A stretch of DNA of 64,000 nucleotides from Eledone cirrhosa (GCA_964016885.1 OZ024745.1:61504001-61568000); one strand, 5' to 3'; positions 3,354 to 61,679 are shown, counted from the first letter of the stretch. Translations and numbers: made by a program. Notes: generated by a model from the sequence alone, not told the origin.

Positions 3354-3585
3354 ATAGTATAAAAAAACGAAAATCAGTGATGCATCTGGACTCAGTTTAT
3401 TGCGTGTTACAATTGTTTCGCAAATTTGCTCCGAACGAACTGCCCGTGTCCGAAGGAACCTGCAGCCGTAGAATCAGCCAGATCCATACAGTGATCATGT
3501 CTCGAGCTACCTGCCTGCGAAACAATTGTAACACGCAATAAACTGAGTCCAGATGCATCACTGATTTTCGTTTTTTTTATACTAT
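3354..3585. repeat. ~69-bp inverted repeat (3354-3422 / 3516-3585) ending in (TA)n
   Basis: Arms are reverse complements apart from one homopolymer indel. A related diverged sequence occurs at ~63870-63966. Confidence 0.9.
3445..3535 (+). ncRNA. Variant minimal hammerhead ribozyme motif (CCGAAGG core)
   Basis: Stem I CGTGT/ACACG flanks CCGAAGG ... GAA-ACAATTGT-A (palindromic stem III, GUA site), followed by AATAAA. The 5' core deviates from CUGANGA. Confidence 0.5.
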
Positions 3586-5214
3586 ATATATATATATATA
3601 TAGATATAACATACTTTATACACACGCATGCACATACATACGTATATTTATTTACAGAGTAAGATTTACATTCGAAATAGAACATATATATATATATATA
3701 TAATATACAGAAGCAGAAAGAAAACCATAGTTAATAGTCACAAAATGATGTTTCTTTACCCCCCCCCCCCCCCCCCCCCCAACAAAACCTTATCTTCAAC
3801 TGTCATTGTTTCTGTTTTTCCCACTTTCATTTCATTAACATTTCCAATCTTTCTCCATCTCCTTTCTTGAATCCAATCTATTTTTTTAACAGGGAGAGCT
3901 CGGAATTGAAATATCTTTGTTCGTCGTGGAATAGTCTAGGATAGATTTTGATCTCCGTGCCAAGTTTTGAGATTTGTTGAGATATTGTGACGTTATTTCA
4001 AGCAAACAGAAAACCTCCGAGCGTATTCTAAACACACGCACGCACGCACGCACGCACGCACGCACGCACGCACGCACGCACGCACGCACGCACGCACGCA
4101 CGCACGCACGCACGCACGCACGCACGCACACACACACACACACACACACACACACACACATATATAAATGAATTTCACAGCTCACACTTATGCAGAATTA
4201 ACTGGCCTCATACAAGGTCTCACATAGGTTTCTGGAGTTTCTTTTATTGGTAGATGCCACAATCCTATCATGAAAAGTAACAGGAAATGAAGAACATTGC
4301 TTATGTATTTCTCTCTCTCTCTCTATATATATATTTATTAAAATAACAGATAAAAGTTTAAGAAATTGGCTAATTTCTTCTAAAGTAAGGAAAGAGAGTG
4401 AGAGAGAAGAAATGAGAAAGAGATATAGAGGAATAATTGACTCCAGTACTGAACTAGTACTTTATTTATCGACCTGGGAAAGTTTCATGTGCGTCTTTAT
4501 GAAATATTTTCTTGTATATATTTAAACGACCTCACTTATTTTTTCTCAGAATACTTTGAAATTATTTCTCAATGTCTTTCTAACGGTAGCAAAAGAGGTG
4601 TCGAATCACCAAAATATCTACCTGTCCTGCAAGGTAAATCGTGGTGAAGATACAATATTTTCTTTATGTCGTGTATTTGAGGTTCATTCTTTCTCTTCTT
4701 TAGTAATTCGCACACACACACACACACACATACACACACACAAAGAATTACAGGCTCCGGCTGCCGGTTGATTTCATGTGCACTCCCAGTGGTAAAATAT
4801 ATTATGTAGATGAACTAAAATTGTGGTGTGTAGGTTTATGTGCTCTATGTATGTATGTATGAATGTATACATGTCTCTGCATGTCTCTCTCTCTTTGTCT
4901 TCCTGTCTCTCACCCTCTCACTACACACACACACACACACACACATATATATATATATATATATATATATGTGTGTGTGTGTGTGTGTATTCCTACATAT
5001 ATTCGTTTGTTAGAGCCTAAAGCTTCCATTTGTTGCTACTTTGAATTTCTTGTATCATATTCTTAGATGACTGTAAATGTGTGAGCATGTGTCTGTCTGA
5101 CCATGTTTCTGTGTGCGCATGTGAGTATGTGTACTTGTGCGTATGTCTGTGTGTTTGTGTATGCATGTGTTAGGGGTATGTTGGTTTTGAATGGTAATTT
5201 CTTCCATTAATCAT

Positions 5215-5900
5215 TAATCAACACTCTGCCGTCGGATACTCACAATTTATTCAGGACTTAATGTATTTACAATTCACCCGAATCAGAAATTTGTTTACAT
5301 GACCTTTGATGTGTAGATGATACAATGTTTTACCTTTCGGCGGAAATTTTATTAGTAAAAAAATGTGAAATAAATATATTAATGAACTTTTTTTAATCAT
5401 TTTTGTGAGAGGAAGAGCATCAGTACCAGTGACAATGGAAGTAGTGCATATCTGACTTGAAATGTCTAGTTTATATGCCAATGATGCATGTGTGTGAGAA
5501 GTTATTAGAACAGTGAAGGGTAGTGTCATCTGCATAGGTGTGTGTTTGACTGGAAGTAAGAGTGTGTAGAATAAGAAGTGTGTGAGGGTAATATTACTAC
5601 AGTTAATAGAATGTGGTACGGAGAAGGACCCCAACCAAGCATCTAATGATTTAGTAATTTCAAAGCAGAGGTTTCAATCCAAGAGATGGGAAGTGAACTA
5701 ATCTCGAAGGCGGGATATTTTACTTGTACGTTTTCTGTCAAACACAGTAGAAAACCTGTTGCTAATGTCAAAGTGATTAACATTGTTTCTGTTGAGGTTG
5801 CTATGACAAAGCGACCACCGTCGTTATGAAAGACAATGTTCAATAGATCTAGATTTACTGAAGCCAAAACGAAAAAGAAGCTGAATATAAAATGCAAGTA
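5215..5900 (-). pseudogene. Decayed CR1/Jockey-group LINE reverse transcriptase fragment
   Basis: Minus strand reads ...TYADDTTLHCS (RT YADD motif, ~5515-5545), with frameshifted upstream RT-like segments. Confidence 0.6.
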
Positions 5901-7339
5901 GTTAATGACTCTCTACGTTACGTTAGACATGTCGGAAGTGAGAGTGACAGGGTCGTAGCTTGATGCATCAGGAAGGTTTCGAATTATTGACATGTCACAC
6001 GTTGTTGTATGTTTTCAAAAGTTGAGATTTAAAGTTAATGCCATCTCGGTTTCCTAAAGTGTTATTTGCAAAACTCTCTTCTTGTCTCCAGTTCGTCGCA
6101 AGATTAATGCCACACTACCCCTTGTACACATTGTTTCAGCTGTGAGGACTACATCAGTCTGAAGTAAAATAACTTACTCAATGACTCAATGCATCACCTA
6201 GTCCGAGAATCTAATCTCCGACCTTACAACCACGAGCACAACACTTAGAGTACTATGCTATATGTCTTCACATGTTGGGATAGTTGTATGTAAAAAAGCG
6301 ACATATTGATTAGTTTTGCGAGAGTAGAGTACAACTCTTGATCACACTGTTAGACTGTGATAAAACGAGAAGATTACATTTTTAGCTTGTAAAGGTTTTC
6401 ATACTTGTTGAATGGTGTGTGATATTTTAAGTCGGATGAGTTTAGAATCAGATCATGACTAAACAATATTAACCTCAAATAGTGTCCTACAAATCAGAAC
6501 AATTTTCAATTATTTTATAAATAAAAACTATCAATTCCCCACAACAACCTTGAACTCATTTTGACTGAAGTGAATTTTGTAGATGTGCTGTATTTTCTGC
6601 AGCTCTGAAAGTCATGTTTTCCCTTAAATTGAAATATTTATAAGAGAAATAGGTAAGTATACACCACATGTTAGACGTGTGATAACGTGCAGAAATAATA
6701 TTTAAGGAAAAGGAAAAAAAGAAAGAAGAAACAGGAAACAAAAGAAAGAGAAGAAAAAAAAAACGCGGAAGGATTTTTAAAGGTAGAATTATTTTCTCTC
6801 AGGCAGATTTTTGAATAAAACAATGTTTTGTCATGGACATATACACCGTGATAGAGTGAAAGAAGAAGAAAGCGAAAGAAAGAATAAAACAGGAAATGGT
6901 GTGTAATAGAATCAGTTTCTCGGTGAATAGCAGTGTCAACTATCGCGTGTGAGGAAAAATTCAAAATCAATTATAAGCCGATTCTTATGGGGCGACCTGA
7001 CCGTATTAGGAAAATAGGTGGTTGAGAGAATTTAGATGACAGGGAAGGTGTGCTTAAGATATATGATGTATAGAAGAAATGGAACAAAATGGTGATAACA
7101 TTTTCAGCAAATTGAATTGTTTAAAGGAATTCCTATACGTTACTACTCTAAAGCCATTGAAATGTCGATAACTTGCAGATTCCTAAATTTAAATGAAGTT
7201 AATTATTCTTCTTCAGTTAGTCTTTCGAGGTCAAATGCTGAAAGATATATTTTGACAAACGGTTGATTGGGCTCAACTAAAATATTCCTGGAGAGGTAAA
7301 GTTACATACAAGTGATGTTTTTCCATGAACACACACACA

Positions 7340-7497
7340 CACATATAGTTGCACCTAGAAATTTCCATTCCGAGGCACAAGTCTGGGCAAGGTTGTTTGT
7401 GGAAAACCAACAGTCGCCCATGCATACCAGTCTTATTTCTACAGCTGAATAAACTGGATCAGCGTGAAATAAAGTGTCTTGCTCAAGGACACAACAA
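7340..7497 (-). mobile_element. CORE-type SINE fragment (family B)
   Basis: CGTGAAATAAAGTGTCTTGCTCAAGGACACAAC is identical to 62641-62673. Confidence 0.7.
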
Positions 7498-7704
7498 TCC
7501 AACATGCGGCTGTTCTGTACTTGAACAATTTAAAACAGAAAAGTTATCAAACCAGATTTGTTTCTTTCATTTGTCATTTGTACCGTACATTTCAATAGTG
7601 AGATTGAAATCATGCATCAAAACACTTCCAAAAACACTTCGTGTCTGCAGCCATAGTCCTGTTCTGTGGTACAATTTTTCCTTTGTTATTATGTTTGAAC
7701 AAAA

Positions 7705-60645: not shown

Positions 60646-60696
60646 GTCCTATTAGTTTCAGTCAACGTGTGGGGCATTTGTCCTTCATCAGGAATA
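60646..60696 (-). ncRNA. Degenerate hammerhead motif
   Basis: TTC-CTGATGA-AGGACAA..TTGACT-GAA-ACTAAT-A-GGA; stems I and III are weak. Confidence 0.4.
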
Positions 60697-61089
60697 ACAG
60701 AGTTTGGATGATAGAAAAAAGACAGAATGAAAAAGGAAAAACGCAAAGAAAATAAAAAAATAAAAATAATAAATAGTTTTAGATTATTTTTTTGAGGGGT
60801 AATGGGTTGAGAGGATTAGTTTTGTCTCGGATTAGGAGATGAACAGACATTGAGTAAGATAATTGTGTTTGTTAGTGTGGTAGTTAGGATGTTTCAGTAT
60901 TTACTGTACTACAGAAAATATGGTAGGAAATATCTAGTAGTTGCAAAATTCAACAGAAATAAGATACTGAAGAAAAGTGCCGCCCGACGAAGTACATCCT
61001 TTCAGTACCAGAATCGTGGGTTGATTTTAAGTATAACATTTTATTACGAGTGTTTTGCAATGTTCTAATTTTGTTTGGCTAGCACGACA

Positions 61090-61320
61090 CATCCAGGTCC
61101 GAATATTTCACCCTCCACATAAAAAAACTAAAGACCAGATATTGCAATGGTTCGAGATTCAAGGGCGCACAACATTTCAACATCGTAACTTCAAATATCT
61201 TCGAGAAGCACCTCAATATTCCCCTGTATAGGATTCCACACGAGCCTACACCATGACAAGAAACATAAATAAGGAGAGAGGCAACAAAATCCCTCATTCC
61301 TCAACAACCAACCAAGGAAA
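61090..61320 (+). pseudogene. CR1-group LINE 3' end remnant
   Basis: TRYCNGSRFKGAQHFNI...FEKHLN..L.RIPHEPT....RREATKSLI resembles CR1/L2-group ORF2 C-termini. Confidence 0.5.
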
Positions 61321-61432
61321 GAGGGGCTATGTAAAGTATAACAATAATAGTGTCTTACCAGCATGGTCGTAGTCCATGGATTGGAATGCACACACACACA
61401 CACACACACACACACACACACACACTTATATG

Positions 61433-61679
61433 TGTACATTTCAGTCCCCTTATGTCTCCTTTTTTTATATTCTTTTATCTAGGAACTCAAATTTCGTGTT
61501 ACACTCTGGACTTTATTTTTGTAGTTCTCTACTCCCGACGAAGGACTAACTTCCGATACGTTGAACTTTCCTGTTTCCTTTCTGAAGCGCAAACCTAAGA
61601 CTATTGTTTTTGTATCTCCGTGTTTATGTTTTCGAACTGTATATATATATATGTACATTTCAGTCCCCTTATGTCTCCT
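61433..61679 (+). mobile_element. Short element with degenerate HHR, bracketed by a 28-bp direct repeat
   Basis: TGTACATTTCAGTCCCCTTATGTCTCCT at 61433-61460 and 61652-61679; CCGACGA-AGGA..TCC-GATACGTT at 61535-61562. Confidence 0.5.

What the first reader, a model, noticed from the sequence alone, without database searches (positions are those of the whole stretch)
3445..61562. Window-wide grammar: HHR - AATAAA - short tail - (TA)n, from many unrelated families
Seen: separate HHR motifs at 3445, 43435, 44215, 45430, 45832 and 48874 (weaker ones at 60646 and 61535) have different stem II sequences. All six have a self-complementary or nearly self-complementary stem III (ACAAUUGU, AUAUAUAU, AUGAUCAU, AUAUGUAT), an AATAAA within or just after the 3' strand of stem I, and then about 40-60 nt before a (TA)n tract. 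A PLE RT fragment lies at 29120. Inference: a large population of TA-microsatellite-targeting Penelope-type or retrozyme termini, more than ten ribozyme motifs in 64 kb. These elements may also seed or expand the (TA)n tracts.
Basis: partly seen in the sequence, partly recalled or inferred. Interest (0 to 1): 0.75.

Follow-up and report, generated by a model that had tools for sequence, protein, structure and literature searches.

The report
Penelope retroelement ends crowding TA repeats
The hammerhead-type RNA motifs are real and sit at the ends of many families of jumping genes that lie in TA repeats across this animal genome; three families carry Penelope-type enzymes, a known arrangement, while protein-free families with the same paired ends likely borrow those enzymes, and self-cutting is predicted, not shown.

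Summary
Observation largely confirmed. A strict type I hammerhead (HHR) scan gives 10 hits against 0.01 in shuffles. Five of the six main motifs pass; 3445 has an 8-nt variant core; 60646 and 61535 are decayed relatives. All eight belong to dispersed families. Three (48874, 3445, 45832) are ends of GIY-YIG Penelope-like elements (PLEs) with Hydra-clade motifs. 45430 ends an ORF-less 2.8-kb PLE derivative. HHR-bearing, (TA)n-targeting Hydra PLEs are published, including one from Octopus. Corrections: copies end at two fixed sites (about +55 and +140 to +200 nt after the cut site); 54 of 62 two-armed insertions have one of each. AATAAA is unlikely to be a poly(A) signal. The window's 44215 copy has no TA tract. 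The RT at 29120 is unconfirmed, and TA seeding could not be tested. The scan reported all three before on other DNA of this genome; I re-tested them here. Cleavage is untested.

The parts
3272..3582 (+). Family F insertion: inverted long-end arm plus 5'-truncated 3' end of a Hydra-type PLE; HHR-like motif 3445-3535 with 8-nt core CCGAAGGA at 3450-3457; (TA)n on both sides
43435..43603 (+). Family C HHR (core CCGAAGA at 43453, predicted cut after 43531) and short end; older family, no ORF linked
44141..44320 (+). Family E HHR (core 44228, predicted cut after 44270) and short end, followed by an inverted SINE pair rather than a TA tract; no ORF linked
45382..45755 (-). Family D insertion: HHR (core 45483, predicted cut at 45434) with short end at 45382 and inverted long tail to 45755; 3' end of an ORF-less 2.2-2.9-kb tandem PLE derivative
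45792..46009 (-). Family A insertion: HHR (core 45889, predicted cut at 45840), short end at 45792, 32-nt inverted long end at 46009; linked to a GIY-YIG ORF in 2 loci
48729..48996 (+). Family B insertion: inverted long tail, HHR (core 48882, predicted cut after 48932), short end; 3' end of a Hydra-type PLE seen full length (frameshifted) in L168 and L169
60599..60700 (-). Family G: decayed HHR-like motif (CTGATGA at 60691) with TA about 90 nt from the core; old dispersed family; fails the strict scan
61520..61639 (+). Family H: decayed HHR-like motif (CCGACGA at 61535) with TA about 105 nt from the core; old dispersed family; fails the strict scan
35136..36968 (-). Retrozyme-like tandem array R: about 3.3 units of about 560-570 bp, three type I HHRs (36525, 35968, 35400), TA on both sides
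34389..35113 (.). R2: two-armed insertion related to R (72% over 145 nt), HHRs at 34634(-) and 34987(+), one long (+176) and one short (+56) end, TA on both sides
30223..31139 (.). Family S: two-armed insertion (889-nt arms pair at 93.6%) with one long and one short end; each arm holds the hammerhead core bases in a rewired order (30280-30349 -, 31054-31123 +)
31171..31622 (.). Family J: two tiny two-armed insertions with only the 3' half of an HHR (GAAAC...GUC) plus the tail motif
43939..44085 (.). Tail-only remnant of a further HHR family (relatives elsewhere carry CTGATGA...GAAATGCGCATA) with the tail motif at 44001(-)
29117..29280 (+). Short reading frame resembling PLE RT thumb motifs by eye; unconfirmed and not linked to any HHR

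Best explanation
The motifs are the hammerhead-bearing terminal repeats (pLTR 3' ends) of many retroelement families lying in (TA)n tracts: three families carry Hydra-type Penelope enzymes, and the protein-free families (a 2.8-kb derivative and 0.5-0.6-kb retrozyme-like repeats) likely use those enzymes in trans. SHOWN: dispersed families; TA-flanked ends; linkage of B, F and A to GIY-YIG ORFs; two fixed ends per family (about +50 to +63 and +138 to +205 nt after the predicted cut site); one of each in most two-armed insertions; heavy 5' truncation. INFERRED from Frangieh 2024 (Anolis PLE in vitro): a dimeric RT-endonuclease cuts both strands of a (TA)n target and primes reverse transcription at two internal RNA sites downstream of an uncleaved or re-ligated HHR; the two cDNAs join head to head, giving the inverted long/short structure, and most stop early, leaving 100-400-bp HHR stubs. 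Each insertion leaves TA on both sides, so later elements pile up at the same tracts. INFERRED, weaker: the palindromic stem III makes cleavage need an RNA dimer, the HHR trims or circularises tandem transcripts, and the TTGAGTRCT tail motif positions the enzyme.
For:: 10 strict HHRs vs 0.01 expected; 41-56 matches from 40 scored candidates each (first-look candidates 851, 634, 99, 2150, 600, 1866; not copy numbers); bimodal distance to (TA)n. L168 = TA, inverted arm, pLTR-HHR, leader, ORF (RWR, DKT, YRDD, SNHP, CxCx5C, GIY-YIG, CxxC/CxH), 2-kb UTR, HHR, TA; these motifs match Hydra-1_Obim by eye in the supplement alignment; 11 of 20 loci picked by an endonuclease query have F downstream on the same strand within 3.5 kb; their RTs are 43-50% identical to B's. 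A collinear with a GIY-YIG ORF in L166/L167 (Pfam GIY-YIG 1.2e-4). D has HHR-to-HHR spacing 2230-2908 nt in 6 of 6 long copies and no ATG ORF over 120 aa; 54 of 62 de-duplicated two-armed insertions are long+short (p=2e-10 against 0.5 for 54 of 61); 44 of 62 have 4+ TA on both flanks; 6 of 7 R arrays examined are two-armed with ends at +90 and +204/+212. PMC8557442 (Hydra clade, TA, HHR, tail at one end), PMC4209133 (dimer-type HHRs in pLTRs), PMC11167929 (two internal starts, both strands extended).
Against: No ORF was linked to C, E, G, H, J or S. Clade assignment rests on motifs, not a tree, and Pfam gave no hit for B's RT or EN pieces. No intact ORF was seen. Family E is weakly TA-associated (9 of 25 within 80 nt; 13 of 25 have a SINE within 330 nt). 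8 of 62 two-armed insertions are not long+short. De-duplication over-collapsed family A (9 kept) and family C was left out of that count. MFE folds do not always give the HHR fold. Tails here are 85-145 nt against 30-40 bp in PMC8557442. Which enzyme moves D, R or S is unknown. No RNA data; cleavage untested; metazoan PLE HHRs cleave poorly in vitro (PMC4209133).
Confidence: 0.8

Rival explanations
1. The short HHR units are independent retrozyme-like mini-elements with their own small RNA, not truncated stubs of long PLEs.
For: True for R (568-bp tandem unit, 41 listed matches all 100% identical over 261 bp) and probably S (tandem spacing about 505-525 in 5 of 30 loci) and J (copies stop at a similar 5' point).
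Against: For A, B, D and F the 5' ends are ragged and long copies run on for kilobases into ORFs or a 2.8-kb unit.
Confidence: 0.2
2. The grammar reflects linear Pol II transcripts ended by the AATAAA signal just after the HHR, primed at the RNA 3' end like a LINE.
For: AATAAA lies at -1 to +6 from the cut site in all six families.
Against: It straddles the cut site in B and is part of stem I in A, B and C; it is missing in R and R2; ends lie about 45-55 nt past it; a second end lies 85-145 nt further; in tandem copies the sequence runs on into the next unit; 1 of 163 loci has an A10 run.
Confidence: 0.1
3. The elements create or lengthen the (TA)n tracts (telomerase-like slippage at priming) rather than only targeting existing tracts.
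For: TA on both flanks in 44 of 62 insertions; both element ends fall at TA-like internal sequence; PLE RTs are telomerase-related (PMC8557442).
Against: Both-flank TA is equally expected from insertion into an existing tract; family E often inserts with little TA. The empty-site test gave 2 hits of 62, both spurious, so no evidence either way.
Confidence: 0.25
4. Chance matches in an AT-rich, microsatellite-rich window.
For: The window is 65% AT and has over 200 TA runs; 60646 and 61535 fail the strict scan.
Against: 10 vs 0.01 in shuffles; each motif is conserved in a dispersed family at a fixed distance from the element end.
Confidence: 0.01

Closest known systems
Hydra clade of C-terminal EN+ Penelope-like elements, including Hydra-1_Obim of Octopus bimaculoides (Craig et al. 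2021, PMC8557442; seen: passages, section 11, supplement part 2 of 59 and term searches)
   Same: RWK-like, DKT, CxCx5C, CxxC/CxH motifs; type I HHR with about 4-bp self-complementary stem III near the 3' end; (TA)n preference; partial tandems, inverted 5'-truncated arm, tail at one end.
   Different: Several coexisting families rather than one; HHR-to-HHR length 4.4-4.8 kb with about 2-kb 3' UTR (published: mostly under 3 kb); tails 85-145 nt; family F has an 8-nt core; HHR sequences differ from the Hydra-1_Obim row.
[quoted passage not shown]
   Same: Thousands of sequence-diverse HHR families per genome, mostly solitary truncated copies, some in opposite-strand pairs 100-700 bp apart; palindromic helix III.
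   Different: Helix III is longer here (4-5 bp); 6-9-nt inserts between stem I and the core in C, D, E; TA targeting was not in the parts read.
PAc (Poseidon of Anolis) in vitro mechanism (Frangieh et al. 2024, PMC11167929; seen: parts 1-2 of 4)
   Same: Two internal RT start sites bounding the tail; both strands cut and extended; AT-rich targets; HHR cleavage not needed for insertion.
   Different: They saw no strand difference in start site; here the two arms of an insertion use different sites in 54 of 62 cases. Different clade; start sites here lie before the ORF.
Animal non-LTR retrozymes (Cervera and de la Pena 2020, PMC7229834, passages; Li, Clavereau and Pollet 2026, 10.64898/2026.07.22.740005, part 1 of 5 and passages, supplements not seen)
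   Same: R: protein-free, low-GC (35%) tandem repeats, one type I HHR per unit; proposed PLE origin.
   Different: Unit 568 bp (published about 150-450); arrays are two-armed, TA-flanked, with fixed unequal ends, which the passages read do not describe.
Non-circularly permuted hammerheads, type SGC (Eckert et al. 2023, PMC10085705; passages)
   Same: Family S has the S, G and C blocks in that order with stems I and III paired.
   Different: The 5' strand of stem II lies upstream of the S block instead of following CUGAUGA; found in an animal repeat; cleavage untested.

Membership tests
EN+ Penelope-like element (families B, F, A) | ORF with PLE RT and C-terminal GIY-YIG endonuclease upstream of the terminus | tested here: met
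   B: L168, L169; F: 11 of 20 loci; A: EN only, 2 loci. All copies seen are broken.
EN+ Penelope-like element (families B, F, A) | pLTR partial tandem with HHR in both repeats | tested here: met
   B: direct HHR copies 4.4-4.8 kb apart flank the ORF in L168 and L169. A: 3.8 kb apart in L166. Not shown for F.
EN+ Penelope-like element (families B, F, A) | Inverted 5'-truncated arm and tail at one end only | tested here: met
   54 of 62 long+short across A, B, D, E, F
Hydra clade | RWK, DKT, CxCx5C linker, CxxC and CxH around the EN E and N, no CCHH | tested here: met
   B reads RWR, KSDKT, CNCRNKPDC, CNLC..E, N....E...CLH, compared by eye. F shows CNCRAGTQC and CRLC..E; its N-terminus was not examined.
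Hydra clade | Phylogenetic placement of the RT with Hydra references | not tested
   No reference sequences were loaded; the protein search gave 4 unnamed relatives at 35-41%.
Hydra clade | Insertion in (TA)n | tested here: met
   (TA)5+ within 180 nt in A 28/30, B 29/30, F 25/25
Autonomous PLE (family D) | RT-EN ORF between the pLTRs | tested here: not met
   6 of 6 long copies lack an ATG ORF over 120 aa; no tblastn hit in 25 upstream stretches. Filed as a non-autonomous PLE-like derivative.
PLE (families C, E, G, H, J) | Linked RT-EN ORF | tested here: inconclusive
   None found in the loci fetched; only the best-scoring copies were seen.
Type I hammerhead ribozyme | CUGANGA/GAAA/UH core with stems I-III | tested here: met
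   A, B, D, E, R, R2; C has U4C in the window copy.
Type I hammerhead ribozyme | Canonical 7-nt core in family F (3445) | tested here: not met
   8-nt core in 49 of 52 distinct copies, 7-nt in 3 diverged ones.
Type I hammerhead ribozyme | Self-cleavage at the predicted site | not testable with these tools
   No RNA holder listed; needs an in vitro assay.
Non-LTR retrozyme (family R) | Protein-free tandem repeat with a type I HHR in each unit | tested here: met
Non-LTR retrozyme (family R) | Expressed as circular RNA | not testable with these tools
   No RNA holder listed.
Type-SGC hammerhead (family S) | Block C intact: CUGANGA directly followed by the 5' strand of stem II | tested here: not met
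   A scan requiring it finds no hit in the window; stem II pairs with an upstream UCGC instead (39-42 of 43 copies per pair).
Type-SGC hammerhead (family S) | Core bases and stems I and III kept in S-G-C order | tested here: met
   GAAA 40/43, UH 43/43, CUGANGA 37/43; stem I pairs 38-43/43, stem III 40-43/43, a few compensatory changes; about 30 of the 43 rows are near-identical copies.

The most novel reading that the evidence does not exclude
This genome holds a whole guild of RNAs, from 4.8-kb autonomous PLEs to 0.5-kb circles, that share one Hydra-type integration machine. A dimeric enzyme reads a conserved tail element (TTGAGTRCT, 45-76 nt before the long end) and primes the two target strands at two different fixed sites of one RNA or RNA dimer, held together by the palindromic helix III. 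Ribozyme architecture is free to drift within the guild, including an 8-nt-core variant (F) and a rewired hammerhead opened next to its core (S) that would be a new natural topology if it cleaves.
Probability: 0.35. Interest if true: 0.75.

Novelty: new member of a known kind. Interest (0 to 1): 0.42.

Why it matters
The core finding extends a published system (Hydra-clade PLEs with HHRs in (TA)n) from one described octopus family to many, so it would not surprise a PLE specialist. Its value is as test material. How PLEs make inverted insertions with a one-sided tail, what their HHRs do, and which enzyme moves animal retrozymes are open questions. Here young, near-identical families give exact start sites, a candidate cis element and a retrozyme with the PLE signature, all of which can go straight into the existing in vitro PLE assay. 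The success of family F with a disrupted core suggests cleavage may be dispensable for spread.

Tried and rejected
Rfam scan: listed matches were microsatellite/hairpin artefacts, no hammerhead among the 150 shown. Minimal-HHR scan with a 2-bp helix III: no hit in the window. 29120 as a PLE RT: Pfam and tblastn with 128 RT-like frames from the loci and with B proteins gave nothing credible; left unconfirmed. 32255-33910(-) as the PLE partner: it is a non-LTR RT (RVT_1, zf-RVT) with a restriction-like C-terminus (pattern recalled), rejected. Empty-site test of TA seeding: 2 of 62 hits, both spurious; uninformative. RNA search for R: no RNA holder listed; no reads were laid. ORF for D: none. ORF for C and E: none among the copies fetched. 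Family S as canonical SGC: rejected; rewired variant kept. Tail motif as a hairpin: MFE folds put it in weak stems in some families only, inconclusive. My notebook entry that B lacks AATAAA was wrong; one search shows it straddles the cut site. Literature searches listed no paper on multi-family cephalopod HHR ends or on two-armed retrozymes; I did not search the literature for the tail motif beyond three 9-mers in the Craig supplement, and subscription journals and bioRxiv supplements were not visible.

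
Full report
Setting. The window is G000:C5:61504001-61568000 of a 3.0-Gb animal assembly. It looks like an octopod cephalopod (recalled SINE sequence and likeness to Hydra-1_Obim; not tested). It is 65% AT and full of microsatellites.

1. The observation. A strict type I hammerhead descriptor finds 10 sites against a mean of 0.01 in 100 block dinucleotide shuffles (descriptor written). 3445 (F) has stems I-III but an 8-nt core, CCGA-AG-GA, in 49 of 52 distinct copies; 3 diverged copies keep 7 nt. 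60646 (G) and 61535 (H) are old families (69-88% identity) with a GAC/GAT-ACGT box. Palindromic stem III is as described. AATAAA is present in all six families but straddles the cut site in B and is absent in R and R2. In the window, (TA)n follows the cut site at 53, 72, 481, 53, 50 and 64 nt; E has none.

2. Genome context. Each motif belongs to a dispersed family (40 candidates scored per search out of 70-2150 first-look candidates, which are not copy numbers). Of 163 loci, 83 have (TA)5+ within 80 nt of the cut site (background 11.5%) and 118 within 180 nt (background 20.5%) (the 180-nt total is my tally's lists). The distribution is bimodal: a short end at +50 to +63 and a long end at +138 to +205. 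Many insertions have an inverted arm. After de-duplication, 54 of 62 have one long and one short end, 5 short/short, 2 long/long, 1 intermediate (p=2e-10; family A over-collapsed, family C left out). 44 of 62 have TA on both flanks; E is the exception, and 13 of 25 E loci have a SINE within 330 nt.

3. Parents. B: L168 shows TA, inverted arm, truncated pLTR with HHR, tail, leader, a frameshifted RT-GIY-YIG ORF, a 2-kb UTR, HHR and TA; L169 is similar. The tail is the leader of the next unit. The protein has RWR, DKT, YRDD, CxCx5C, CxxC and CxH motifs, the features given for the Hydra clade, and matches Hydra-1_Obim motif by motif by eye. F: 11 of 20 loci chosen by an endonuclease query have F downstream on the same strand within 3.5 kb, with RT 43-50% identical to B's. 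A: collinear with a GIY-YIG frame in two loci. D: tandem pLTRs 2230-2908 nt apart in 6 of 6 long copies, no ATG ORF over 120 aa, 98-100% identity among the best copies: a young non-autonomous derivative. C, E, G, H: no parent found. The 29120 frame has no Pfam or credible tblastn support. The RT at 32255-33910(-) is a non-LTR element, not a PLE.

4. What else follows the grammar. R (35136-36968) is a 568-bp tandem repeat with one HHR per unit; all 41 listed matches are 100% identical over 261 bp. Of 7 arrays examined, 6 are two-armed with ends at +90 and +204/+212, nearly all in TA. This is the PLE signature on a retrozyme. A motif T[TA]GAGT[AG]CT lies in the tails of A, B, D, F and J: 7 of 9 window occurrences are 45-76 nt before a TA tract. 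Outside the queried families' tails, 48 of 82 contexts have TA 35-95 nt downstream, against 11 of 82 for the reverse complement, 0-2 of 8-30 for four permutations and 7.8% at random; one family (J) supplies many of these, so they are not independent. A similar sequence ends Hydra-2_Amil in the supplement. [quoted passage not shown] I looked at S only after earlier scan notes pointed to a rewired hammerhead in this genome.

5. Mechanism. Shown: ends, TA flanks, linkage, truncation. Inferred from PMC11167929: the enzyme cuts and extends both strands and starts internally at two sites that bound the tail; HHR cleavage is not needed in vitro. The genome adds that the two strands use different sites. 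Since both starts lie downstream of the HHR, the template must carry an intact junction (uncleaved tandem transcript or circle). Near-identical multi-unit R arrays favour a circle but do not prove it. Dimer-dependent cleavage through the palindromic helix III follows PMC4209133 and is untested here. A poly(A)-signal role for AATAAA is unlikely. TA seeding is untested.

6. Known versus new. Craig et al. 2021 list 27 Hydra families, nearly all (TA)n-inserting, with HHRs of this build, including Octopus bimaculoides. Cervera and de la Pena 2014 describe massive, diverse, solitary PLE HHRs. Li et al. 2026 propose a PLE origin of retrozymes. So the finding is a set of new members of a known kind. 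The long/short pairing, the two-armed retrozyme, the tail motif and the rewired HHR were not in the passages I read (searches), but the scan has reported each on other DNA of this genome; those notes are not independent support.

7. Verdict. Real, well above chance, and explained in kind; interest 0.42, carried mainly by the testable extras.

Noticed in passing
window 44320-44758; loci L116-L140: An inverted SINE pair abuts the short end of family E; 13 of 25 E loci have this SINE within 330 nt, mostly 46-63 nt after the cut site. The SINE may target or be co-inserted at E's end.
   Followed up: partly
window 30223-31139: Two-armed family S with a rewired hammerhead core; tandem unit about 505-525 bp in some copies.
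   Followed up: yes
window 31171-31622: Family J: tiny two-armed insertions carrying only the 3' half of an HHR; copies across many loci stop at a similar 5' point, suggesting run-off at an RNA end.
   Followed up: partly
window 32077-33910 (-): Non-LTR retrotransposon remnant: RVT_1, zf-RVT and a restriction-like C-terminus (R4/NeSL-like, recalled), frameshifted.
   Followed up: partly
window 42352-42620 (-): CTGACGA...GAAA motif at 42589 in a repeat with relatives in other loci; a possible further minimal HHR family, 238 nt from TA.
   Followed up: partly
window 43657-43882: 226-bp perfect palindrome (99%) between two TA tracts, probably a two-armed terminus of another family; no HHR seen.
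   Followed up: partly
window 49120-49170: 51-nt inverted fragment of the family B HHR inside the TA field next to 48874.
   Followed up: no
window 151-730: Tandem SINE array, period 204, 2.8 copies.
   Followed up: no
window 50291-55014: About 4.7 kb of degenerate (TGG/TGA)n repeat with strong G skew.
   Followed up: no
L327 (G000:C1:379420500-379428500), minus strand: 946-aa open frame of an endonuclease-RT LINE (RTE-like, recalled) near an F-family endonuclease fragment.
   Followed up: no
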